Virus record (IMG/VR): IMGVR_UViG_2690316152_000014
Length of the DNA: 14,138 nucleotides
Origin: a virus
Taxonomy: Duplodnaviria; Heunggongvirae; Uroviricota; Caudoviricetes
Reading direction: 5' to 3' (one strand)
Shown here: in pieces, positions 1 through 14,138 of the stretch
Layout of the letters: every line of letters starts with the position of its first letter
Position numbering within the stretch: position 1 is the stretch's first letter
Notes under the pieces: model-generated
The model's input: the letters and a program-made list of their open reading frames with translations, nothing else
Told to the model about the DNA's origin: nothing
The model's database searches: none
Made by a program: the position numbers and the translations under genes

Positions 1-387
1 ATGTTCAATATCATGATTCGTAAATTTGGTGAGATGACTTTCGAGAAAGCTGGTGTTGCTCGTACCGAAGAAGAAGCAATGGCCTTAGTTCTGGTAGCAC
101 TGAGATCATCACCTGAGATTATCGACGCTGAATATGTAGCCGCAGAAGGTGAGATTAAAGAGATTAAAGCGGTGGCTAAGGAATTAGGTGTTAAAGGTTT
201 CCGTAAGCTGAGATTGAATCGTGAGACTTATGTAATCGGTAAACAGGGGCAATATATGGATGAGAATAGCATAATTGTTCTACTGAATAAGATTACCCGC
301 TACGGTTGGAAGATTGAGCAATATAAAACGTGTTTCGAATTATACGAAAAAGGTTTGCTGGATACTCTGACCATCGTTCGCGCTTAA
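1..387 (+). CDS. hypothetical protein (128 aa); may be 5'-partial because the ORF begins at the window edge
   Basis: Open frame from position 1 to a TAA stop at 385-387, followed by a hairpin terminator. No motif recognised. Confidence 0.5.
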   Translation: MFNIMIRKFGEMTFEKAGVARTEEEAMALVLVALRSSPEIIDAEYVAAEGEIKEIKAVAKELGVKGFRKLRLNRETYVIGKQGQYMDENSIIVLLNKITRYGWKIEQYKTCFELYEKGLLDTLTIVRA

Positions 388-700: not shown

Positions 701-1114
701 ATGAAAAAGATTATCGCTGGTATCGTTCTTGCTATGGGTTTGGTTGGTACTGCTAATGCTAATACCTATTATGTGTGTAATTCCTACTTCGAACATAAAG
801 GAGATGATACACGCTACCTGAGTGATGGCGACCGTTATTATCATGCACCGTCTGGAAAATACCGTGGTTTTATCGGTGTAAAGGTTCGAGTGAATGATGA
901 TAATAGTCAATTTGCTTTCAACGATCCGGTATTTGATAGAACAATCAAAAGCCCGAAACTGAAAGAAGATAAGAACGAGAAAGAAGAATATTATGGTTCC
1001 GAAGATGGTAAGTCTTACATCAAATATCTGCATTCTATAGATGGCGCTCCTATATTTGATGTTAAAAAAGGTGATACATCTTATACCCTGATTAGCTGCC
1101 GTGAAATTCTTTAA
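701..1114 (+). CDS. secreted/periplasmic protein of unknown function, with a cleavable signal peptide
   Basis: N-terminus MKKIIAGIVLAMGLVGTANA has an n-h-c signal-peptide layout and an A-N-A signal peptidase I site, with no lipobox. RBS AAGAGGA upstream. Two Cys in the mature part (CNSY and ISCREIL). Confidence 0.7.
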   Translation: MKKIIAGIVLAMGLVGTANANTYYVCNSYFEHKGDDTRYLSDGDRYYHAPSGKYRGFIGVKVRVNDDNSQFAFNDPVFDRTIKSPKLKEDKNEKEEYYGSEDGKSYIKYLHSIDGAPIFDVKKGDTSYTLISCREIL

Positions 1115-1129
1115 TCTTTAATCACCTAG

Positions 1130-1166
1130 CCCCTATCGTTATAATACACGGTAGGGGCGTTTTTGT
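1130..1166 (+). terminator. Rho-independent terminator candidate (loop holds a TATAAT hexamer)
   Basis: Stem CCCCTATCG/CGGTAGGGG (one G-U pair), 10-nt loop TTATAATACA, then CGTTTTTGTTT. Confidence 0.5.
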
Positions 1167-1177
1167 TTGGAAATGGT

Positions 1178-2860
1178 ATGAAAACTAAACTGTATTCGTA
1201 TATTCGCTTCTCTTCCATGAAGCAAGCAGATGGTAGTTCATTTGAACGCCAGAAGAGAACAGCGAAAGAGATAGCCGCAAAATATGATCTTGAGCTAGTT
1301 ACTTCCTATCAAGATTTCGGTGTATCTGCATTCAAAGGAGCTAACAGTAAAACAGGTGCATTATCTCGTTTTCTGGATGAGATTGGTCGATCCGTTCCGG
1401 TTGGTAGCTGGCTGGTGGTGGAAAACTTAGACCGTATCTCCCGTCAATCTGTTATTGAAGCTCAAGAGCTATTCCTTTCAATCATCCGCAGGGGAATAAC
1501 AATTGTTACTGGTATGGATGGGAAGGTCTATAGCAAAGAATCGGTTAATGCTAATCCCATCGATTTACTATTGAGTGTAATGTTGTTTGCTCGTGCAAAT
1601 GAGGAAAGTCAGACTAAACGCAATCGCACTAACTCAAGCGCACTACTCAAGGTTAAAGCCCATCAGGAGAATCCACAAAATCCGGCAGTGGCAATCGAGG
1701 AAATTGGTCGCAATATATGGTGGGCTGATACTTCATCGGGTTATGTGCTTCCACATCCGGTGTATTTTCCTGTTATCAAGAAAATCGTTGAATTAAAACA
1801 GAATGGTTATTCTAATGGTCGGGTTCTTGATTATCTGAATGAAAGAATCACCCCGCCTAATTACACAACGAACAAAGATACCCCTAAGAAATGGGCGCGT
1901 TCTATGTTAGCCAGGATGTTCTCTAACCGCGCTTTGCTTGGTATCAAAGAGATAACCATTGAAGGTGTGACATATGAGTTAAAGGATTATTACCCACGAG
2001 TGATGGAAGATGCCGAGTTCTATCAACTCAAGAAGACTATAGGACTGAGGTCGTTTTCTTATCCCACTAAGTCTAGTCCTGTTATTACCCTGTTAAGTGG
2101 TGCTGGCTTGCTTCGATGTGGTCATTGTGGGGCAAGTATGGTTAAGAGAAGCGGAGCATCAAAAGAGAGATTAGCCCAATATCGTTATATGTGCGATGGC
2201 GCAGATAGCAGGAGGACTAATTGTGATCATCCAAATTGGGGCTTTCGTGGTGATCAACTGGATAAGGCTGTATTGCAATTGCTGGCTGATAAAATCTGGA
2301 TTGCTGAGGATAAGGCTAATCCGATCCCAGGTATGCAAGCCCAGATTGAAGACATTTCACGCAAGATTGATAACCTGATTAGTCTTTCTGCAATGACAGG
2401 AGCAACGAAGGAACTAGCCGATCAGATTACTACCCTGAATCATGAGCGTGAGACCATCTATAACCAGATTAAGGTAATAGAAGAGAACATGTATTCAGTT
2501 GATTCTCAAGGCTGGGAGAAGCTAGCACAATTTGATTTAGAGGATGTTTGCAGCGAGGAACGGTTAAAAGTTCGATTGAAGATTAAAGAAGCTGTTAAGT
2601 CTATAAATTGTTACAAGATTGATACCAATTATAATCATTTTTTAATGGAGTACATCGACGGGAAGACACAAAGGATAGTGATCGAGAGGTCACGCCGTAA
2701 CAGGAAAGGGAGAATTTTTGTAGACGTGAAGACTATCAATGATAGGCAGATTCTGGAGAGCAACGGGCTTGTTCTGCATCCATGTTTAGACATGCTGACA
2801 GATAAGAACTGGAAACCGGAGGAAGAAATACCAGGTCCATTACAGGAATTTGGAATTTAA
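1178..2860 (+). CDS. large serine recombinase (probable phage integrase)
   Basis: N-terminal resolvase-type catalytic motifs: YIRFSSMKQ (catalytic Ser), SFERQ, and LVVENLDRISR. C-terminal zinc-ribbon cysteines (LLRCGHCG ... YMCDG ... NCDH) followed by coiled-coil-like sequence. Start set to the ATG at 1178; the track's 1163 is a TTG. Confidence 0.88.
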   Translation: MKTKLYSYIRFSSMKQADGSSFERQKRTAKEIAAKYDLELVTSYQDFGVSAFKGANSKTGALSRFLDEIGRSVPVGSWLVVENLDRISRQSVIEAQELFLSIIRRGITIVTGMDGKVYSKESVNANPIDLLLSVMLFARANEESQTKRNRTNSSALLKVKAHQENPQNPAVAIEEIGRNIWWADTSSGYVLPHPVYFPVIKKIVELKQNGYSNGRVLDYLNERITPPNYTTNKDTPKKWARSMLARMFSNRALLGIKEITIEGVTYELKDYYPRVMEDAEFYQLKKTIGLRSFSYPTKSSPVITLLSGAGLLRCGHCGASMVKRSGASKERLAQYRYMCDGADSRRTNCDHPNWGFRGDQLDKAVLQLLADKIWIAEDKANPIPGMQAQIEDISRKIDNLISLSAMTGATKELADQITTLNHERETIYNQIKVIEENMYSVDSQGWEKLAQFDLEDVCSEERLKVRLKIKEAVKSINCYKIDTNYNHFLMEYIDGKTQRIVIERSRRNRKGRIFVDVKTINDRQILESNGLVLHPCLDMLTDKNWKPEEEIPGPLQEFGI

Positions 2861-2896
2861 GCGGCCTAAATCGCTGCATAACGAGATAAACGCTTT

Positions 2897-2917
2897 AAGG
2901 GGTACGTACCCCTTTTT
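2897..2917 (+). terminator. hairpin terminator / perfect 18-bp palindrome AAGGGGTACGTACCCCTT followed by T-run
   Basis: Perfect palindrome at 2897-2914 plus TTT, located 37 nt after the recombinase stop. Confidence 0.45.
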
Positions 2918-2929
2918 AATTTAATTGCG

Positions 2930-3925
2930 TTACGCGGCCTCTAAGGGGCTTAAATCAAGTTCTAGGTCTTCCGGTTCCAACTCGGCTAATGGCATTGAGT
3001 GCATCATAGCGAAATCACGTTCTATATCATCTTCGGTTATGTAGTCTTCTGGGTTGATTTCGAAATCAGCATCAAAATATATTGGTTCGGGCGAATTGTT
3101 ATAAATGTACTCCTGTATGAATTTTTTCACATCATCCATTTTGCTGATTGGTAAAGTTTCAGTATAACCACGAGACATTAATTTACGACTAATCCGCTTA
3201 CCTTTGATGTGTTTTTTGATGCCACTTTCTAAATCACCAGCTTTCCAGCCGCAATCAAACGTGTGTGAATATTCAAGGGATAATATTTCATCGGTGTATC
3301 TTTGAGTTTCATACATTCGACGTAGTGGATTTTTGCGCGTAGTTATACCAAATTTTAAAAATTTTTCTCCTACACGAAAAACATAAAAAATAACTGGTCG
3401 ATGTGTATCTTTGTTCATCAAAGCATGTTGTTTCCCGTTTGAAAGAGCAGTTATAGCGCCACGTATAAGAGGACAAGTTAAACTCCCCCGATTACGACTA
3501 CTAAACAAATCGGCTTTGTTGTATATTTTACCATGACAATTACATTTTAGTTTTAGATGGGTTGTTATTCCTCTGTATGGTTCGGCTAGCCCTAAAACAT
3601 CCCAGCCAATCTTATTAAAGAAATTGGTTGAAACTTGTATGTACTCATGTTCTGTATACATGCAAGGTTTCTTATATGTTGGGTGATGGTCTTTTCCTGT
3701 AAACTTACCCATTAAGACACGTTGTAATAAAGGAGTTTTAACTTTATCGCCAACTTTTATATAAACTTTTGTTCGCTGGAATGGCTTATGGATAGGTAGA
3801 ACGAATCCCCCATAAATCCATCCATTAGATTTACATTGGTCAACAACCATTGATTCATATTCAGATGGGCTTTTAGCCGTTGATTTTTTGATGAAAGGAA
3901 TATCTTTAGCAAAAACGGTTTTCAT
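2930..3925 (-). CDS. Cys-rich GIY-YIG-like (T5orf172-like) putative homing endonuclease, paralog A
   Basis: ATG at 3925 with GAGGA RBS. Segment VIFYVFRVGEKFLKFGITT resembles a GIY-x(10)-YIG signature. Cys/His clusters upstream (LKLKCNCHG, LTCPL). Acidic C-terminal tail. Clearly paralogous to the 5053-6090 protein (shared WIYGGFVLP/LIYHGFVMP, KFGIT/KYGIT, GYTET). Confidence 0.55.
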   Translation of the reverse strand: MKTVFAKDIPFIKKSTAKSPSEYESMVVDQCKSNGWIYGGFVLPIHKPFQRTKVYIKVGDKVKTPLLQRVLMGKFTGKDHHPTYKKPCMYTEHEYIQVSTNFFNKIGWDVLGLAEPYRGITTHLKLKCNCHGKIYNKADLFSSRNRGSLTCPLIRGAITALSNGKQHALMNKDTHRPVIFYVFRVGEKFLKFGITTRKNPLRRMYETQRYTDEILSLEYSHTFDCGWKAGDLESGIKKHIKGKRISRKLMSRGYTETLPISKMDDVKKFIQEYIYNNSPEPIYFDADFEINPEDYITEDDIERDFAMMHSMPLAELEPEDLELDLSPLEAA

Positions 3926-3996
3926 AATAGCGAATCCTCATAAATTAAATTCACTATTATTTATTAGTATTTTTCTTGATAATAAAGATTGTTATT

Positions 3997-4668
3997 ATGT
4001 GTGATATTAAAATTAGCTTCATCAATTATAGCCATGTGAAAATTGATTATTCTCCTTCCATTGCAATGGAATTGAGAGATTATTTTAGCTTTGAAGTGGA
4101 AGGAGCCAGATTTAGTCCCAGATACAAATATTCGGGCTGGGATGGTCGTATTAGACTTTTTACCTATGAAAATTTGATGCCTATTGGCTTAGTTCGAATG
4201 GTTAGCGTGTTTTCAAAAAATATGGGTTATAGTGTTTTGATAGACCCTAGACTTTTGGAGCGGGAAAATGTCGATGAAAAGGAAATCGAAAAATGGTGCA
4301 ATGTCCTAGAATTATATTCTGGTGCTAACAGAGTTACCCCGCACTGGTATCAATCAAAAGCAGTCTTTGAAGGTATTCATCATAAACGTAGAATGTTAGT
4401 TCTTCCTACGTCCGCTGGCAAATCTGCTATCGCTTGTATGTTATCTCGTTGGTACTTAGAGAACTACGAAGGCAAAGTGTTGATCATTGTCCCGACGACC
4501 TCGCTTGTTCTCCAGATGCGGGATGATTTTGTTGATTATCGCCAGTTTCCTTATGAAGCTATTCATACTATCATGAGCGGTACTAGTAAGCATGTAGGGG
4601 ATCGCCTGATTGTTGTCAGTACATGGCAATCCGCTTGTAAACAGCCTCGTGAATGGTTTAAACAATAA
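3997..4668 (+). CDS. uvsW: UvsW-like SF2 DNA helicase, N-terminal fragment (223 aa), stops just before motif II; likely a gene remnant
   Basis: Collinear with the T4 UvsW N-terminus as recalled from memory: N-terminal domain, PHWYQ, Walker A LPTSAGKS, YLENYEGKVLIIVPTT, and WQS..KQPREWF. The ORF stops immediately before the expected DECH box. Start set to ATG 3997 (the track's 3976 is TTG). Confidence 0.7.
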   Translation: MCDIKISFINYSHVKIDYSPSIAMELRDYFSFEVEGARFSPRYKYSGWDGRIRLFTYENLMPIGLVRMVSVFSKNMGYSVLIDPRLLERENVDEKEIEKWCNVLELYSGANRVTPHWYQSKAVFEGIHHKRRMLVLPTSAGKSAIACMLSRWYLENYEGKVLIIVPTTSLVLQMRDDFVDYRQFPYEAIHTIMSGTSKHVGDRLIVVSTWQSACKQPREWFKQ

Positions 4669-4697
4669 AAAAGCGCCTACTATGAGGCGCTTTAATT
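4669..4697. terminator. bidirectional hairpin terminator between convergent genes
   Basis: AAAAAAGCGCCT-ACTATG-AGGCGCTTTAATTTTA: GC-rich stem flanked by an A-run and a T-run, between the uvsW fragment stop and the peptidase stop. Confidence 0.55.
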
Positions 4698-5051
4698 TTA
4701 TCCATACCAGCGGGATTTAGTGGAACGGCTATCAATATGGGTAAAGGTTTTATATTTGCCTAAGCCATATTGATTAGGATATTTGCTATCTAGATACGCG
4801 TGAACAATATCAGGCGAGACACCTTTCACTACAATATCTGCGGCCTTGCCCGTGATATGAATCGAACGAGAAGCACCACCAACTTTCTTATTGTGTGCCG
4901 GACAACGGTTAGCACTGTTAATAACTACTGGTTTCCCGAAGTGTTCGCGTACATCCTCAAGAATTGCCAGTAATTCCGCGTCTACGGTATCTTGTCCGCA
5001 CTTTCCACATTTGCATTCAAATTCCTTGCGAGAAAAATGTTTGCTTAACAT
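4698..5051 (-). CDS. peptidase M15-family protein (zinc D-Ala-D-Ala carboxypeptidase-like); possible cell-wall hydrolase
   Basis: Motifs SANRCPAHNKKVGGASRSIH, GKAADI and FTHID fit the H...D...H zinc site of M15 peptidases. N-terminal CKCGKC cluster. Start is 1 nt after the stop of the upstream paralog-B gene, with a GGGGG SD. Confidence 0.6.
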   Translation of the reverse strand: MLSKHFSRKEFECKCGKCGQDTVDAELLAILEDVREHFGKPVVINSANRCPAHNKKVGGASRSIHITGKAADIVVKGVSPDIVHAYLDSKYPNQYGLGKYKTFTHIDSRSTKSRWYG

Positions 5052-5052
5052 A

Positions 5053-6090
5053 TTACCCCCTATATGTAATTTTATAGTTGTTGGAGTTTTTACAAAAATC
5101 CATTGCCATTTTTCTAATCTGCGCTTCTTTGGTTATGTCACATGTTTCTGTATATCCGTCTGGGATTAGTTCTTTTGGTGCAGCGTGACTTCCTATGTTA
5201 TGTTTTACGGAATATTCTAGGTCATTGGCAACTTTTCCGTCACCGAAAGTTATATACCACAATAACTTGTGAGATAATCCTGACTCTCTTGATTGTTGTG
5301 TGATTCTCTTTTGTGGGTTTAGGTGATTTGTTATTCCATATTTGATATAATCGCCTACTTGCTGGACATAGAAAACACCTGGTTTACTTTTGTTATACCC
5401 ACTCTTAGAACAGCACGGACAACCATCGTTTTCGTAAACCAAACCATACGCAACAATAGTATCTGATATATGGCCTTTTTCACACTTTAGTTTTAGTTTT
5501 GACATAGCCAAAATTGGGGATTTAGGTCGTTTTATTAATTTGAGTCTCTTTTCTTTGCACCCGTCTTCAATTAATCCCAACCATTCGTCGTCTGTGTGCT
5601 TTCTCTTATTAATTCCTCTCTTAATTGACCCACAATGACGGCACCCAGCATCATTGTTTATGATTCTTGTGATTATCGTTTCGTATGTGGTGTTACAACA
5701 AGTGCATTTATATGATGCCTTTGTATCAAGCCCTTTATATTCTTCCAACAAACCAACTAAAACCATCTCTTTACGTTCTAATACATTGCTTGCTTTGGTG
5801 AGAATGGTTTCTTCGTCTCTATTATTTTTCTTTGGTAGTTTTAAAGAATCTCTATAACATTCAATACAAGCACCTTGTTTCTTAAGGGATTTGAATACTA
5901 TCGTTCTTGATGTGTTGTGTTTTTTGCAAGTTACATAAACGTGTGTATATTGACCTTTCCACGGCATGACGAAGCCATGATAAATCAAACCTAATTCACC
6001 ACATCGTTTAATTGCAATTGTTTCATAGTCGTGCGGAGTTTTTCTTTTGAATCCGGTGTAATCGATATATTCAGCAAATAAAACTTCCAT
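5053..6090 (-). CDS. Cys-rich GIY-YIG-like (T5orf172-like) putative homing endonuclease, paralog B
   Basis: Three Cys-rich modules (KRCG..VTCKKH..CIEC; KCTCC..GCRHCG; LKCEKGH..GCPCC), then GVFYVQQVGDYIKYGIT (GIY-YIG-like) and DGYTET. GGGGGA SD upstream of ATG 6090. Confidence 0.55.
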   Translation of the reverse strand: MEVLFAEYIDYTGFKRKTPHDYETIAIKRCGELGLIYHGFVMPWKGQYTHVYVTCKKHNTSRTIVFKSLKKQGACIECYRDSLKLPKKNNRDEETILTKASNVLERKEMVLVGLLEEYKGLDTKASYKCTCCNTTYETIITRIINNDAGCRHCGSIKRGINKRKHTDDEWLGLIEDGCKEKRLKLIKRPKSPILAMSKLKLKCEKGHISDTIVAYGLVYENDGCPCCSKSGYNKSKPGVFYVQQVGDYIKYGITNHLNPQKRITQQSRESGLSHKLLWYITFGDGKVANDLEYSVKHNIGSHAAPKELIPDGYTETCDITKEAQIRKMAMDFCKNSNNYKITYRG

Positions 6091-7787: not shown

Positions 7788-10700
7788 TTAACGAATAGAA
7801 ATACCAGAAGTGGCTTTTTTAGCGACCATCACAACAACATCGGTCGCACTACCCGATCTACGGGTTGAAACAGGCCATGCTTTAAACTCTAAAGTCACGC
7901 TACCCTTACCCGCTGGCATGTCTATAACGCTACTGTATGCAATAGGTATTGGTCCGCCTGATTCTAATGCTTTCAGTAAAGTACCATTTTTACGCACTTC
8001 TAAACGCATACGGCTATACCCGGTTCTGCCCGGATTATCACCAGTTCCTGCAATATCGTATTCAGCGCCAGCAACAATAATTGGCGGAATGATGATTTGA
8101 CGGTCAAATTTATGGTCATCATTGATCGTTACGGTAACAGCACCATCAGGAACACCAGCATCACCTAAAGTAGCAGCACCACGAGGAAACGCCTTAGATA
8201 CAGTCTTAACAAAATCACCGCGTACCTGAGTAGCTTCTAACATACCCTTAATAACACAGGATTCGTTAATCGTGACGTTGTTCAGAGTACCGGAATCAGC
8301 CGTGATATTACCTTTGATTTTGGCATTCATGAACGTAGCGGACCCGTTCTTGTTGATATGCCATCCGGTAGATCCGTTCCAGTTGGAAGACTGGATATAG
8401 TTACCGATTTTAGCGTTATCAATTGCACCGTTTACAATCTTGGCGTTAGTGATCGCCCCGTCCTGAATCTTCGCGCTATTAATTGCAGCATTGCCGATTT
8501 TAGCCGTGGTGATTGCCGCATCAGTAATCTGGGCTGTGCCGATTGAGGCATTACGGATCATGGACCAGTCCATATACACCTTGTTTCCTTCGACACCAAA
8601 CGGAACAACACCCGCCGCGCCATCCTGTGGAGCTACCACCAGCTTATCAGCCGTAAAGATGATTTTAGTCGGTTGTGCCGGATCGTTAGTTGCGCTCATG
8701 TGAATACCAGCCACACGACCATCTGCATTAACTGCAAGATTGTATTTGCTGTTAATGGTTCCCTTCAAAGCATCGATCTTAACGTCCGCTTCTTGGTTAA
8801 CACCAGCAATCTTGCCATCCATTTCTACCCGAACTTGATCAATCTTACTTGCGCTTGCTGCCTCACTGGTTGCAATTGCTTGTTTCAGGGTAGTAGCAGA
8901 TGCGCTAACTTCTTTGGTGATATCACCTTTCAATTCAGCTTTAACCTGATCAATCTTAGTGGAGCTAGCTTGATCACCAGAGACAATCAGACTCTTAAGA
9001 GTATCGGCTGAGGCTTGGACCGTCTGTCCTGTTTCAGTAGTGATTTGCTTGTGCATTGCATCAATTTTAGCATCGGCATTTTCGCCAGCTTGAGCAATAG
9101 CATCAGCGATAGTTTCATCTAAGCGATCTTGTAAACCAATCAGGTCTTCCAGTGCTTCTTTGTCCTGATCTTCCCAACTAATCGAAGATTTCATAGACAT
9201 GAAATACGGTTCAGACCAGACAGCATCATCCATGCCGAAAATATCGTAGTGAGCACCACGGATATAATAATCACCATCAGCCAAATCAAAGGAAGTATGG
9301 CTAACACTATTCGTGCTTACTGCCCTTGCATCGGAGAAAGTGTTATCGGTTGCATACTGGATGATTGACCCTGCATAGTCATGTTCTACGTCATCTGTCC
9401 AGCTAACAAACGCAGTATTAAAGCCACCACGCGCACTAAAACCTTTCATCGGCTTATGCTGTGGGTTGATAGCCACTAAACGCGCTGGGGCGCTCTCTGA
9501 GTTGTTATATCCTTTAACCGATACTTCCACCGTCAGTTGACGCGAAAGGCCGTTAAACTGGTTCATATCAAGCGTATAAGTCCATGATTCAGGATCGCGG
9601 GTACGGTACTGAATAGACTTACCAGCCTTGTTAGTAACCTTGATAATGTATGCTTCAAACAGGTCACTAAACTTGTTAGCTTCGCCGTTGATCATCACAT
9701 CTAAGCCTTGCTGGTTATCCCATTCGATAATCAGATCATTACCTTCGAAAGTGCCAGCCGTGCTACCCTGATTTTTGATTCGAATAGTCGGAGTCGGCAA
9801 TTCATAGGTAACAGTAGGATTCTGGTTAATCAGTTCTACCCAATCGGATCGCGCGATGATACCGAAAGCACAAATACGGTAATCGTAAGAACGATCTTTA
9901 GCCAGTGCATTGACATTGAAGATTTGCTGTGAAGTCTGACCCAGCTTAATCCAGTTAGGTGATCCGCTTACACGATAATCAATCTGGAAACCATAACGGT
10001 TAAAATCTTCCGGTGCATCCCATGTCAAAGTAACGTTTTTACCGTAAATCGTCTCGCCAGTTGCCTTAATTCTGAAATTAGTAGGCTTCTGTACTGTCAT
10101 TGAATCCGGTAAACCACTTGGTCTATTGTCTGGAGTTGCCGCATAGTTCAGGTCAGTATAAACCTGAGAATTATATTCTGTAGCGGTGATAGTCATCATC
10201 CCAGCAATACCAGAATCAATCGAGCGATCAATTGCGGTAATACGCCATAAAGAATTATTCAGTTTTAATTCATCATAGGTTACGCTAATAACATCCCATA
10301 CTTCGGCAGTGAATGCGTCAGTAGTCATAAAGCTGATAACCTGAGTGATACGAGATTTATTTCGTTCAATGCTCGCTAGTTTATCAATCTGGTCTTTAGA
10401 CTTAACGAAACGATATTCTACATCCTTAGCAATAATTCGACCATCTGCGCGAACAGTAGCATCGTTTTCAGCATCAGCCGGATAACGTAGCATTTGCTCC
10501 GAATAGTCGATTGATGGTTCTTGATATACCGCGTTAATGGTATTGAAATAACCGTTAGTACCACCAGTTTTAAGGGATACTTTACCCATCATAATATTGT
10601 CTTCATTGAAGGTATGCTTAACAATATCAGGAGCATCCAGTTTCAGAGTAATTCTTCCGAAGGATTCGAACATTACCCCGCCGAAAGTCTGCATTAATCC

Positions 10701-11567
10701 GGTTAAGTTCTCTTTAAAGCTGGCGTTCGGATCACATGCACCGTTTGAATGTAGATCCATCTGGCGTACTTGTTTACGCACTTTCAGGAATGAATCAACG
10801 TTAATGTTTTCAATTGGTACACTAAGACCATATTTTGTATTTGTCAGATAATGGAAAATCTGATCCACGCCGTTAGTGCTTGCCTCAATAGCATTGGTTT
10901 CAAGGTTACGGATTTTAAGGCCGCAAACGTCTACTGTTACCTGGCTATTCGTTTGCAGAATATCAACACCAGCAGCCAGAGATTTGTCATCACGGCGTAA
11001 AACAATACACATGGTCGCAATACCGTTACCCTTGTAAGCATCGGTCCAGTCTGAGCCTAAATGATGTTTAGCCAGTGACAATGCGGTGTTAGGATTCTTA
11101 CCCGTGCGAAACTCAACTTCTAAAACTTTGCGGTATTCGTCTTTAATGTTGCCCTTATCGAGTACACCATCACGGATCGTCATGTTCTTACCGACCAACA
11201 CATTTTTATTATCGATAAAGAGTGCTTTGTAATGGTCGATTTCACCCTCTGCAACAGAAAAGATTTGCACTAACTTATTGTTTTCTTTCTTAGAAATAGC
11301 TTTGTAAACGCAGTTTGTGCCAGTACGGGTAACACCAAAAAGAACGGGTACTACTGTTTTTGGATCGGTTGATGTTCCTAGTGTCACCGCATTATCTGGG
11401 CTTTGTACTTTAGGCGTTTTTGGCGTAGCAGCTACGGAAGCAATCAAGGTCATTGCACCAGCAGCCATACCGATAGCAACTGCGGTCATAACAGAGAATG
11501 TTGCAGCAGCAGCCATCCCAGCAGATGCACCCGCAATAACCGCACCTACTAATACTTCAATTCCCAT
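7788..11567 (-). CDS. lambda J-like central tail fiber / host specificity protein (1259 aa) with an N-terminal extension resembling the C-terminus of tail assembly protein I
   Basis: Size and position after the K-like gene. C-terminal ~200 aa match my recollection of the lambda J receptor-binding region (SGTLNNVTINE, DDHKFDRQIIIP, VIDMPAGKG, VVVMVAKKATSGISI). N-terminal Gly/Ala-rich hydrophobic segment and VVPVLFG motif resemble the gpI C-terminus. ATG at 11567 overlaps the upstream stop (TAATG). Confidence 0.85.
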   Translation of the reverse strand: MGIEVLVGAVIAGASAGMAAAATFSVMTAVAIGMAAGAMTLIASVAATPKTPKVQSPDNAVTLGTSTDPKTVVPVLFGVTRTGTNCVYKAISKKENNKLVQIFSVAEGEIDHYKALFIDNKNVLVGKNMTIRDGVLDKGNIKDEYRKVLEVEFRTGKNPNTALSLAKHHLGSDWTDAYKGNGIATMCIVLRRDDKSLAAGVDILQTNSQVTVDVCGLKIRNLETNAIEASTNGVDQIFHYLTNTKYGLSVPIENINVDSFLKVRKQVRQMDLHSNGACDPNASFKENLTGLMQTFGGVMFESFGRITLKLDAPDIVKHTFNEDNIMMGKVSLKTGGTNGYFNTINAVYQEPSIDYSEQMLRYPADAENDATVRADGRIIAKDVEYRFVKSKDQIDKLASIERNKSRITQVISFMTTDAFTAEVWDVISVTYDELKLNNSLWRITAIDRSIDSGIAGMMTITATEYNSQVYTDLNYAATPDNRPSGLPDSMTVQKPTNFRIKATGETIYGKNVTLTWDAPEDFNRYGFQIDYRVSGSPNWIKLGQTSQQIFNVNALAKDRSYDYRICAFGIIARSDWVELINQNPTVTYELPTPTIRIKNQGSTAGTFEGNDLIIEWDNQQGLDVMINGEANKFSDLFEAYIIKVTNKAGKSIQYRTRDPESWTYTLDMNQFNGLSRQLTVEVSVKGYNNSESAPARLVAINPQHKPMKGFSARGGFNTAFVSWTDDVEHDYAGSIIQYATDNTFSDARAVSTNSVSHTSFDLADGDYYIRGAHYDIFGMDDAVWSEPYFMSMKSSISWEDQDKEALEDLIGLQDRLDETIADAIAQAGENADAKIDAMHKQITTETGQTVQASADTLKSLIVSGDQASSTKIDQVKAELKGDITKEVSASATTLKQAIATSEAASASKIDQVRVEMDGKIAGVNQEADVKIDALKGTINSKYNLAVNADGRVAGIHMSATNDPAQPTKIIFTADKLVVAPQDGAAGVVPFGVEGNKVYMDWSMIRNASIGTAQITDAAITTAKIGNAAINSAKIQDGAITNAKIVNGAIDNAKIGNYIQSSNWNGSTGWHINKNGSATFMNAKIKGNITADSGTLNNVTINESCVIKGMLEATQVRGDFVKTVSKAFPRGAATLGDAGVPDGAVTVTINDDHKFDRQIIIPPIIVAGAEYDIAGTGDNPGRTGYSRMRLEVRKNGTLLKALESGGPIPIAYSSVIDMPAGKGSVTLEFKAWPVSTRRSGSATDVVVMVAKKATSGISIR
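8395..8545 (-). repeat. in-frame tandem short repeats inside the J-like gene, encoding (D/N)(A/G)AI(T/N)x-AKI(G/Q/V) units
   Basis: Protein segment TAQITDAAITTAKIGNAAINSAKIQDGAITNAKIVNGAIDNAKIGN. Matching DNA repeats of GCCGATTTTAGC / CGCGAAGATTCAGGA type were read by eye; coordinates are approximate. Confidence 0.45.
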
Positions 11568-13296: not shown

Positions 13297-14018
13297 TTAC
13301 ATCTTACGACGCTGGACGTCTTCTACATGCTGCGCAACTAATTTAGCATGACGTTTGATAGCATCCATGACCATCTTGTCTGAGCTATTAACGTTGCCGT
13401 TAATGTTCAAAGGCGCATTAACTTCAATCGGCTGAGAGTTGCCGCCTGATTTTTGAGCAGATAAGAAGTCTTTCAAATCACCGTTAGTACGCTGATCAAC
13501 TACTCGTTCACCCTTATCAAGCAACCATGTACCCTCACGCGGGATGTTATCGATACCATCATGCGCCATACCACTAACGTTAGTAGACTTGATGTTAGCA
13601 ATGCTTCCCATGTTCTGAGCAACAGCCAAAGCACTAGCGGCGATCTTCTGTCCTGTGGTTACGTTGGTCGGATCGTTCCATGCATCGGTGGCAGCCGTCC
13701 ACATGTTCACCGTCGCTTGCCCGATAGAGAATGCTTTATGAGCATTAAAAGCCATTTGCATAGCTTTAGTGTTTTCCTGCCCGAAAAGAGTCATTGCAGC
13801 AGAAAAACCACTGTACATATCATCGGCTATTGACTGGCGAGCATCAGCATATTTCTTCTCAATTGCAGCCATCCGTTTTTGATGGTTTTCGTTGAGTTTT
13901 TCTAATGCAGCCATCCGTTTAGCCGGATCATTAATACCATCGATCTTAAGACTTTCGGTCTTATAGTCTTGTTCAGCTTCCGATTTCTCTTTATCGATTG
14001 CATTAAATTTAGCAAACG
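13297..14018 (-). pseudogene. tail tape-measure-like protein, C-terminal fragment; 5' part cut off by an IS insertion
   Basis: The frame stays open upstream of Met 13914 to the IS junction at 14018/14019 and meets a stop only inside the IS (TAG at 14044-14046 on the minus strand). Ala-rich, helical composition and the position upstream of the M/L/K/J-type genes suggest a tape measure protein by synteny. Confidence 0.5.
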
Positions 14019-14138
14019 TGAACCGCCCCGGGAATCCTGGAGACTAAACTCCCTGAGAAAGAGGTAAACAGGATGACTAAAAATACACGTTTTTCCCCCG
14101 AGGTCCGTCAACGGGCAGTTCGTATGGTTCTGGAAAGT
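14019..14138 (+). mobile_element. IS3-family insertion sequence (IS629/IS1203/IS3411-like), left end; continues past the window
   Basis: Starts with TG: TGAACCGCCCCGGGAATCCTGGAGACTAAACTCCCTGAGAAAGAGGTAAACAGG, then an ATG encoding MTKNTRFSPEVRQRAVRMVLES. I recognise this as the IS629-group left inverted repeat and OrfA N-terminus. Confidence 0.8.
14073..14138 (+). CDS. IS3-family transposase OrfA, N-terminal 22 codons (partial)
   Basis: ATG at 14073 preceded by GAGG. Translation MTKNTRFSPEVRQRAVRMVLES is typical of the helix-turn-helix OrfA N-terminus of IS3-family elements. Confidence 0.8.
   Translation, partial: MTKNTRFSPEVRQRAVRMVLES

What the first reader, a model, noticed from the sequence alone, without database searches (positions are those of the whole stretch)
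1178..2929. Large serine recombinase with an adjacent perfect palindrome as candidate att core
The recombinase has a resolvase-type catalytic domain plus a zinc-ribbon/coiled-coil C-terminus, typical of serine integrases. It is transcribed opposite to the late genes at the end of the accessory region, mirroring a lambda-like int position. A perfect 18-bp palindrome (AAGGGGTACGTACCCCTT, 2897-2914) lies 37 nt after its stop, inside a short region with GCGGCCT direct repeats. It may simply be a terminator, but it is also a plausible crossover site.
Basis: partly seen in the sequence, partly recalled or inferred. Interest (0 to 1): 0.5.

Follow-up and report, generated by a model that had tools for sequence, protein, structure and literature searches.

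The report
Prophage serine integrase and its terminator
The gene is a genuine large serine integrase of an E. coli prophage inserted in the codB gene, but the neat palindrome after it is an ordinary transcription terminator; the real attachment site is a TT-centred site just outside the left edge of the window.

Summary
Both observations are real. ORF 1178-2860 is a 560-aa large serine recombinase (LSR). A perfect 18-bp palindrome sits at 2897-2914.

The att-core reading of the palindrome fails. The window is identical to E. coli contigs in which this prophage splits codB, next to lacIZYA-codA. Comparing attL and attR with the intact K-12 gene places the crossover at a TT dinucleotide 52 bp left of window position 1, about 1.2 kb upstream of the recombinase gene. 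Related prophages, with LSRs 73-97% identical, sit in hicB and ycdX. Their TT cores lie at the same end of the element, and the reconstructed attP arms form imperfect inverted repeats, as expected for LSRs.

The palindrome is internal to the prophage in every locus whose flanks were examined. It lies between convergent genes and is followed by a T-run. Across 37 related loci the stem (AAGGGGTA/TACCCCTT) and the following TTTAATTTAATT are the same by construction of the search, while the centre varies in length and sequence (CAGATG, CATCCG, CATTCG, TCG, CG and others). That pattern fits an intrinsic terminator, not a crossover site. The "perfect" palindrome is simply this lineage's loss of the loop.

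Ordinary biology: an uncharacterised member of a known kind, with att sites now mapped.

The parts
1178..2860 (+). Large serine recombinase (prophage integrase), 560 aa. Motifs: R10/S12 in YIRFSS, D85-R86...R89, and zinc-ribbon Cys314/317/339/349.
   Evidence: Pfam Resolvase + Recombinase + Zn_ribbon_recom. phrog_95 integrase, E 3e-54. The N-terminus aligns to PDB 3GUV, a resolvase-family protein, with S12 on its VST serine. The identical protein is found on at least 20 contigs, next to a truncated codB in the loci where that flank was shown.
2861..2896 (+). Conserved 3' spacer (GCGGCCTAAATCG...) between the integrase stop codon and the hairpin.
   Evidence: Present in 36 of the 37 loci compared; in one it reads GCGGACT. 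In the E275a/PI7 lineage an extra 262 bp is inserted between the stop codon and this block.
2897..2924 (+). Intrinsic terminator: hairpin AAGGGGTACGTACCCCTT (2897-2914) plus T-rich tail TTTAATTTAA. It is shared by the convergent genes 1178-2860(+) and 2930-3925(-).
   Evidence: Picked up by the terminator scan as a 7-bp stem with a 4-nt loop followed by a T-run. It folds as the same hairpin in both strands. In relatives the centre differs while the stem and T-tract are the same.
1129..1158 (+). Terminator-like hairpin plus T-run after ORF 701-1114, just upstream of the integrase gene.
   Evidence: Terminator scan: 11 pairs, 7 of them GC, tail GTTTTTGTTT. Every + strand gene in this arm ends with such a hairpin (401-421, 1129-1158, 2897-2914, 4670-4693).
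1..387 (+). First prophage ORF after attL (128 aa, function unknown). The attL crossover TT lies 52 bp upstream of window position 1, so it is outside the window.
   Evidence: phrog_14908, unknown function. Junction sequence from L009.
701..1114 (+). Small ORF (137 aa, no family match) between attL and the integrase gene.
   Evidence: Annotated as hypothetical in relatives.
2930..3925 (-). Convergent 331-aa ORF, nuclease-like (phrog_681 'endonuclease', weak CapR homology domain). It is the first gene of a variable cargo region.
   Evidence: It is a paralogue of ORF 5053-6090 (25% identity, E 4e-15). The gene at this position in UTME-12 has T5orf172/MUG113 domains.
3976..4668 (+). Truncated uvsW-like helicase gene (N-terminal ~45%). 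This is cargo and not part of the integration machinery.
   Evidence: Pfam UvsW_N plus a partial ResIII/DEAD match. 85-89% nucleotide identity to Krischvirus uvsW. The backbone resumes at 4664.
4670..4693 (.). Bidirectional terminator-like hairpin that closes the cargo region, just before the endolysin gene 4698-5051(-).
   Evidence: Terminator scan hits on both strands. Peptidase_M15_3 endolysin.

Best explanation
ORF 1178-2860 encodes the large serine integrase of a siphovirus-type E. coli prophage of about 36 kb. The integrase recombines a phage attP with an attB inside the host cytosine permease gene codB. Both sites are centred on a TT crossover dinucleotide, and integration splits codB.

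In the integrated state sampled by this window, attP no longer exists. Its right arm is part of attL, whose TT core lies 52 bp to the left of window position 1. That is about 1.2 kb upstream of the integrase start codon, with two small ORFs in between.

The 18-bp palindrome at 2897-2914 is the stem-loop of a rho-independent terminator. It ends integrase transcription and probably also insulates the convergent minus-strand gene. Its perfect symmetry arose in this lineage when the 4-nt loop seen in relatives was lost.

Shown here: the domain architecture, the insertion in codB, the att junction sequences and TT core, the terminator-like form, and the conserved-stem/variable-centre pattern. Inferred: catalytic activity, actual termination, and the identity of the excision factor.
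For: Source of the window. The window is identical, with 0 mismatches over 12,860 bp, to L009 (GCA_050422215.1) and L011. There it follows lacI-lacZ-lacY-lacA-codA and a truncated codB.

codB att sites. K-12 attB reads ...CCCGGTTGCC TT ACCCACCGG.... attL of the window's source reads ...GGTTGCC TT GCCTAACATATCATTCC.... attR of strain 39EVA, whose LSR is 97% identical, reads ...ATTGACCTGTGGGG TT ACCCACC.... The only bases shared by all three are TT.

Same logic in relatives. Prophages in hicB (E275a, PE15, PI7) and in ycdX (UTME-12) again have a TT core and a homologous phage-side arm, TT CCCTAATATCATGTACCC.

attP symmetry. The reconstructed attP arms are imperfect inverted repeats about TT. For the hicB type, 18 of 26 positions match and 1 of 2000 shuffles does as well. 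For the codB type, 11 of 2000 shuffles do as well.

No second integrase. No other integrase gene is annotated in the whole prophage in E275a or 39EVA.

Specificity. The recombinase (DNA-binding) domain is the most diverged part between the codB and hicB types, at about 60% identity against 73-78% overall. That fits a change of target.

Terminator. The hairpin plus T-run is found by the scan and folds identically in both strands. Across the 37 loci retrieved, the centre takes nine forms: CG, TCG, ATTCG, CATCCG, CATTCG, CATCTG, CATTTG, CAGATG, GAAA. Four contigs that encode the identical integrase carry TCG instead of CG.
Against: attR of the window's own source was not retrieved, because it lies beyond the 10-kb flank limit. 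The codB attP is therefore assembled from two closely related prophages.

No intact attP junction of either type was found in IMG/VR or in JGI metagenome contigs. There is thus no direct sign of an excised or virion form, and the prophage could be defective.

The stem and T-tract were fixed in the search pattern, so their invariance among those 23 loci is partly by construction. The 14 loci found through the protein or by BLAST are free of that bias.

The hairpin's folding-energy z-score in its 69-nt context is modest (-1.6).

Termination and recombination were not measured.
Confidence: 0.9

Rival explanations
1. One reading: the palindrome 2897-2914 is the core of the recombinase's attachment site (attP).
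For: It is close to the integrase gene, as attP often is. It is the longest perfect palindrome in the window.
Against: It lies inside an integrated prophage with phage DNA on both sides, in every locus whose flanks were examined. The real junctions are in codB, hicB and ycdX, with a TT core at the far side of the integrase gene.

The centre of the palindrome varies in length and sequence, even among prophages with the identical integrase protein. Its central dinucleotide CG is itself palindromic. By established knowledge of serine integrases, such a site would have no polarity.

It is 18 bp long, whereas LSR sites are about 40-50 bp.
Confidence: 0.02
2. The hairpin block has a second role. The conserved sequence around it (GCGGCCTAAATCG...hairpin...AATTTAATTGCGTTA) would be a boundary or target at which cargo genes are exchanged. 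The mechanism could be homologous recombination between phages, or homing of the adjacent T5orf172/GIY-YIG-like nuclease genes.
For: The DNA between this block and the endolysin gene differs in almost every lineage: a 331-aa nuclease-like ORF plus a uvsW fragment here, a GIY-YIG nuclease plus a full helicase in UTME-12, and nearly nothing in PI7. In E275a/PI7 an extra small ORF is inserted on the other side of the block. Window 2856-2900 matches a T5-like phage at 91%. The same hairpin plus tail occurs in an unrelated 89-kb viral contig, L034.
Against: This is compatible with, and does not replace, the terminator function. Conserved intergenic terminators commonly mark mosaic joints simply because they flank selectable gene cassettes. 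No cleavage site or repeat structure that would define a homing target was found.
Confidence: 0.15
3. The recombinase is not the prophage integrase. It would instead be a resolvase, invertase or transposase-type serine recombinase serving a smaller element or an internal inversion.
For: PHROGs gives a weaker second hit to 'DNA invertase' (phrog_125, E 2.5e-11) through the shared catalytic domain.
Against: At 560 aa, with Recombinase and zinc-ribbon domains, it is the integrase class, not the class of ~190-aa invertases. The split halves of codB, hicB and ycdX flank the whole 36-38 kb prophage. No inverted repeat copies of any candidate site were seen around the gene. The target gene changes together with recombinase sequence type.
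Confidence: 0.03

Closest known systems
Phage-encoded large serine integrases (phiC31, Bxb1, TP901-1, A118/LI integrase class)
   Same: It has the N-terminal resolvase catalytic domain with a serine nucleophile motif, a recombinase domain, and a zinc ribbon followed by long helices. It is 560 aa. The att sites are short imperfect inverted repeats around a non-palindromic 2-bp core (TT). It integrates into a host coding sequence, and no tyrosine integrase is present in the element.
   Different: Sequence is very distant from characterised members. The only PDB match by sequence is a catalytic domain at E 4e-06. The best match in deposited phage genomes is 30% identity, to YbcK-like recombinases of lambdoid phages and to Burkholderia phage integrases. 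attP is about 1.2 kb from the gene, with two ORFs in between, rather than directly adjacent. No directionality factor has been identified.
Rho-independent (intrinsic) terminators between convergent phage genes
   Same: A GC-rich stem is followed directly by a T-run a few tens of nt after a stop codon. The stem is conserved and the loop is free to vary. Similar hairpins end each + strand gene in this arm.
   Different: In this lineage the loop has been deleted, so the element reads as a perfect 18-bp palindrome. The RNA must use the inner ACGU as its loop, leaving a 7-bp stem. On the minus strand the U-tract is weak (UUAAAG), so termination is probably asymmetric.
YbcK-type large serine recombinases of E. 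coli lambdoid phages and prophages
   Same: They share the host species and the three-domain architecture, and they are the closest phage-borne relatives in the collection searched.
   Different: Only about 30% identity over 82% of the length. The phage backbone and genomic position are different.

Membership tests
Large serine recombinase (serine integrase) | N-terminal resolvase-type catalytic domain with the serine nucleophile and conserved Arg/Asp residues | tested here: met
   PF00239 at residues 6-154, E 1.3e-15, 58 bits against a cut-off of 23. YIRFSS (R10, S12) aligns with YTRVST of PDB 3GUV. LDRISR lies at 84-89.
Large serine recombinase (serine integrase) | Large C-terminal extension containing a recombinase domain (this distinguishes the class from ~190-aa resolvases and invertases) | tested here: met
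   PF07508 at residues 198-288, E 3.6e-08, 34 bits against a cut-off of 21. Total length is 560 aa.
Large serine recombinase (serine integrase) | Zinc-ribbon domain with four Cys ligands | tested here: met
   PF13408 at residues 309-369, E 1.3e-11. Cys314, 317, 339 and 349.
Large serine recombinase (serine integrase) | Coiled-coil motif emerging from the zinc-ribbon domain | tested here: inconclusive
   The single-sequence AlphaFold2 model is poor overall (mean pLDDT 41). Its one confident stretch (pLDDT 74-92, about residues 381-430) lies within two long helices (382-407 and 411-438) directly after the zinc ribbon. That is consistent with a coiled coil but does not prove it.
Large serine recombinase (serine integrase) | Short attP and attB sites that differ from each other, each an imperfect inverted repeat around a 2-bp non-palindromic crossover | tested here: met
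   A TT core was deduced independently at codB, hicB and ycdX. attP arm symmetry is 18/26 for the hicB type (1 of 2000 shuffles as good); for the codB type 11 of 2000 shuffles are as good. This was deduced by comparative genomics, not by assay.
Large serine recombinase (serine integrase) | Unidirectional attP x attB recombination, reversed only with a directionality factor | not testable with these tools
   No RDF candidate could be named. The two small ORFs next to the gene have no informative family match.
LSR attachment-site core (claim made for 2897-2914) | Lies at the junction between element and host DNA in the integrated state | tested here: not met
   Phage genes lie on both sides in the window and in every relative whose flanks were examined. 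The junctions lie at the split codB, hicB and ycdX genes.
LSR attachment-site core (claim made for 2897-2914) | Central crossover dinucleotide that is fixed for a given recombinase and non-palindromic | tested here: not met
   The centre is CG in the window but TCG in four contigs that encode the identical protein. It takes seven other forms in relatives. CG is its own reverse complement.
Intrinsic (rho-independent) terminator | GC-rich hairpin immediately followed by a U/T-run, downstream of a stop codon | tested here: met
   The scan reports a 7-pair stem, a 4-nt loop and the tail TTTAATTTAA. The hairpin is present in the MFE and centroid folds. It starts 36 nt after the stop codon.
Intrinsic (rho-independent) terminator | The structure is conserved, rather than the loop sequence, among relatives | tested here: met
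   The same stem occurs with nine different centres across 37 loci. In the 14 loci retrieved independently of the hairpin sequence, the stem is also unchanged. No compensatory stem changes were seen, so the support comes from loop variability only.
Intrinsic (rho-independent) terminator | Transcripts end at the U-tract | not testable with these tools
   Needs Term-seq, 3' RACE or a reporter assay.

The most novel reading that the evidence does not exclude
Two readings remain open.

First, the set of closely related integrases (73-97% identical) forms a natural specificity series. Each has a naturally mapped attP/attB pair in a different E. coli gene (codB, hicB, ycdX), all with a TT core. It could show which residues of the recombinase domain re-target a serine integrase, and it could supply orthogonal integration tools native to E. 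coli.

Second, the conserved terminator block may double as the landing pad through which T5orf172/GIY-YIG-type nuclease genes shuttle cargo into this temperate prophage. That cargo includes a fragment of a T4-like phage's uvsW.
Probability: 0.2. Interest if true: 0.45.

Novelty: new member of a known kind. Interest (0 to 1): 0.15.

Why it matters
It matters little for basic biology. A prophage serine integrase followed by a terminator is textbook. The value is practical: the gene is annotated in RefSeq only as 'recombinase family protein', and I found no paper describing codB or hicB as serine-integrase targets. The mapped TT-centred attP/attB pairs for three related integrases give ready-to-test substrates. 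The result also corrects a tempting misreading, that a palindrome next to an integrase gene is its att site.

Tried and rejected
- **Source search by DNA pattern.** Exact search for the loop-less palindrome with its flanks found nothing in IMG/VR or in the GTDB species genomes. The looser hairpin pattern also found nothing in the GTDB genomes. The source was found instead through the exact protein look-up.
- **Intact attP.** Searches for a reconstructed intact attP of the codB type and the hicB type in IMG/VR and JGI metagenome contigs gave no hits. There is therefore no direct evidence of the excised form.
- **Known RNA families.** An Rfam scan of the window at gathering thresholds found nothing, so the intergenic region holds no known RNA family.
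- **Literature.** No paper links codB to a serine recombinase, and nothing relevant links hicB. The att and protein strings are absent from the held supplements of Durrant et al. 2022, which may be truncated.
- **Defence-system models (PADLOC).** Only weak generic helicase hits, for the uvsW fragment.
- **Structure prediction.** The single-sequence model was too poor for a fold search, so none was run.
- **GCGGCCT direct repeats.** Considered as recombination-related and rejected: the second copy lies in a coding 3' end and is not conserved in most other lineages.
- **GGGTAC-like motifs.** These occur in both the palindrome and the hicB-type attP arm. I treated this as coincidence, because the spacing and the core differ and the codB-type attP, which is this window's type, lacks the motif.
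- **Stx-phage hits.** I first guessed that the Stx-phage matches lay in the tail-tip C-terminus. That was wrong; they are an IS end at 14008-14138.

Full report
**1. What is in the sequence**

ORF 1178-2860 (+) encodes 560 aa. Pfam finds three domains above their curated cut-offs:
- Resolvase, residues 6-154, E 1.3e-15
- Recombinase, residues 198-288, E 3.6e-08
- Zn_ribbon_recom, residues 309-369, E 1.3e-11

PHROGs places the protein in phrog_95 'integrase' at E 3e-54. The catalytic motif YIRFSS (R10, S12) aligns with the serine motif of the resolvase-family structure 3GUV. LDRISR lies at 84-89, and the zinc-ribbon cysteines are at 314, 317, 339 and 349. A single-sequence AlphaFold2 model is poor overall (mean pLDDT 41). 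Its one confident stretch (about residues 381-430) lies within a pair of long helices at 382-438, directly after the zinc ribbon, where serine integrases carry their coiled coil. So this is a large serine recombinase, not a small resolvase or invertase.

The palindrome AAGGGGTACGTACCCCTT is exactly at 2897-2914, 36 nt after the stop codon, and is followed by TTTAATTTAA. It is the longest perfect palindrome in the window. However, 36 of 500 Markov simulations contain one as long, so length alone proves little.

**2. Where the window comes from**

Deposited phage genomes match only two short parts of the window: a uvsW-like stretch and an IS end. Complete E. coli chromosomes match most of it at about 90% identity.

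The exact integrase protein occurs on at least 20 contigs. L009 (GCA_050422215.1) and L011 are identical to the window over all 12,860 overlapping bases. In these contigs the window is preceded by lacI-lacZ-lacY-lacA-codA and a truncated codB (301 of 419 codons). The window is therefore the left arm of a prophage integrated in codB.

**3. Where the attachment site really is**

In the complete genome of strain 39EVA the integrase is 97% identical to the window's. There the two halves of codB flank a 35.8-kb prophage with terminase, portal, capsid, tail, endolysin and Rha genes, and with no other integrase.

Aligning the junctions with intact K-12 codB gives:

| Site | Sequence |
|---|---|
| attB | ...CCCGGTTGCC TT ACCCACCGG... 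|
| attL, window's source | ...GGTTGCC TT GCCTAACATATCATTCC... |
| attL, 39EVA | ...GGTTGCC TT ACCTAACATATC... |
| attR, 39EVA | ...ATTGACCTGTGGGG TT ACCCACC... |

The only bases common to all of them are TT. A 2-bp crossover is what serine recombinases use. In L009 this TT is at 8771-8772 and window position 1 is at 8824. The core therefore lies 52 bp outside the window, about 1.2 kb upstream of the integrase start.

Related prophages tell the same story at other genes. E275a, PE15 and PI7 split hicB. UTME-12 splits ycdX. In each case there is a TT core and a homologous phage-side arm, TT CCCTAATATCATGTACCC.

The reconstructed attP arms are imperfect inverted repeats about TT. For the hicB type, 18 of 26 positions match and 1 of 2000 shuffles does as well. 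For the codB type, 11 of 2000 shuffles do as well.

Between the codB and hicB types, the recombinase (DNA-binding) domain is the most diverged part, at about 60% identity against 73-78% overall. That fits re-targeting.

**4. What the palindrome is**

It lies between convergent genes: the integrase on the + strand and ORF 2930-3925 on the - strand. The terminator scan calls it, along with analogous hairpins after each + strand gene of this arm: 401-421, 1129-1158 and 4670-4693. It is the dominant hairpin in folds of both strands.

I compared 37 loci: 14 found by BLAST or protein look-up, and 23 IMG/VR contigs found by a pattern that fixed the stem and tail. The centre between AAGGGGTA and TACCCCTT takes nine forms:

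| Centre | Loci |
|---|---|
| CAGATG | 9 |
| CATCCG | 7 |
| CG (plus the window itself) | 5 |
| CATTCG | 4 |
| TCG | 4 |
| CATCTG | 3 |
| ATTCG | 2 |
| CATTTG | 2 |
| GAAA | 1 |

The usual form is thus a 9-bp stem with a 4-nt loop. The window's lineage has lost the loop, which is the only reason the palindrome is 'perfect'. Four contigs that encode the identical integrase carry TCG instead.

A crossover site could not tolerate this variation. In addition, CG is its own reverse complement. From established knowledge of phiC31 and Bxb1, a site with a palindromic central dinucleotide has no polarity. The element is therefore an intrinsic terminator. Termination itself is inferred, not measured.

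**5.

GCGGCCT occurs at 2861 and 2934, and also at 4840. The first copy belongs to a conserved 3' spacer. The second is coding sequence of the minus-strand ORF and is not conserved in most other lineages.

The 'int at the end of the element, opposite to the late genes' picture is correct. No directionality factor could be named: ORFs 1-387 and 701-1114 have no informative matches.

**6. Comparison with what is known, and novelty**

Architecture and att logic are those of the phiC31/Bxb1/A118 class. The sequence is remote from characterised members. I found no literature on codB or hicB as serine-integrase targets. This is a new, uncharacterised member of a well-known kind, and the specific att-core hypothesis is refuted.

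**Limits**

- The window's own attR was out of reach.
- No intact attP was found in public viral or metagenome contigs, so the activity of the element is unproven.

Noticed in passing
window 3976-4668 (+); compare L019 3208-4710 and L006 6195-7685: A truncated uvsW-like helicase gene sits in this temperate prophage. It covers UvsW_N plus the first half of the helicase core, roughly the first 670 of 1503 nt. Window 4216-4666 is 85-89% identical in nucleotides to Krischvirus (RB49-like, T4-type) uvsW. It is only 71% identical to the full-length 496-aa helicase at the same position of the UTME-12 prophage. This suggests separate, fairly recent transfers from virulent T4-like phages. The fragment ends exactly where the prophage backbone resumes (4664).
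   Followed up: partly
window 2930-3925 (-) and 5053-6090 (-); L006 4296-5471: Two paralogous nuclease-like ORFs (25% identity, E 4e-15; phrog_681 'endonuclease'; CapR homology domain) flank the uvsW fragment and the endolysin gene. The UTME-12 counterpart has T5orf172/MUG113 (GIY-YIG-like) domains. Their presence is sporadic among otherwise collinear prophages, as for free-standing homing-endonuclease genes.
   Followed up: partly
window 2915-4697: The stretch between the integrase terminator and the endolysin gene is a cargo hot spot, and its content differs in nearly every related prophage. It holds a nuclease-like ORF plus a uvsW fragment here, other hypothetical genes plus IS1 in 39EVA, a GIY-YIG nuclease plus a hypothetical gene plus a full helicase in UTME-12, and almost nothing in PI7.
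   Followed up: partly
L001 20859-21115 and L007 4225-4481 (no counterpart in the window, between 2860 and 2861): In the E275a/PI7 lineage an extra 262 bp is inserted between the integrase stop codon and the GCGGCCT block. It carries a small ORF with a signal-peptide- or lipoprotein-like start (MKMIKILGLILSMNSC...). It looks like a moron.
   Followed up: no
window 14008-14138: The last ~130 bp match IS629/IS3-family transposase-element ends in Stx phages at 93-98% identity. Similarity to related prophages stops at 14018. An IS element has apparently inserted into the tail-gene region here. This also explains the thousands of E. coli records hit.
   Followed up: partly
window 7832-8086 (3' end of the tail-tip gene 7788-11567, - strand): The part encoding the C-terminal receptor-binding end of the J-like tail tip protein (Ig_GpJ_C) is not alignable with the E275a prophage, although the rest of the gene is 88-91% identical. 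This suggests a swapped host-range module.
   Followed up: no
window 2856-2900; L034 ~831-862: The spacer-plus-hairpin sequence matches a T5-like phage (KookSpook) at 91% over 45 bp. The same hairpin and tail, with a GAAA loop, occur in an unrelated 89-kb viral contig. The terminator module seems to travel between unrelated phages, perhaps with T5orf172-type genes.
   Followed up: no
L006 1274-1669 against L018 3880-4617: The UTME-12 integrase is 92% identical to the hicB-type enzyme, yet the prophage sits in ycdX. The two attB left arms are similar (TTTGGGA TT against TTTAGGT TT). ycdX may therefore be a secondary site, or a recent shift in specificity.
   Followed up: partly
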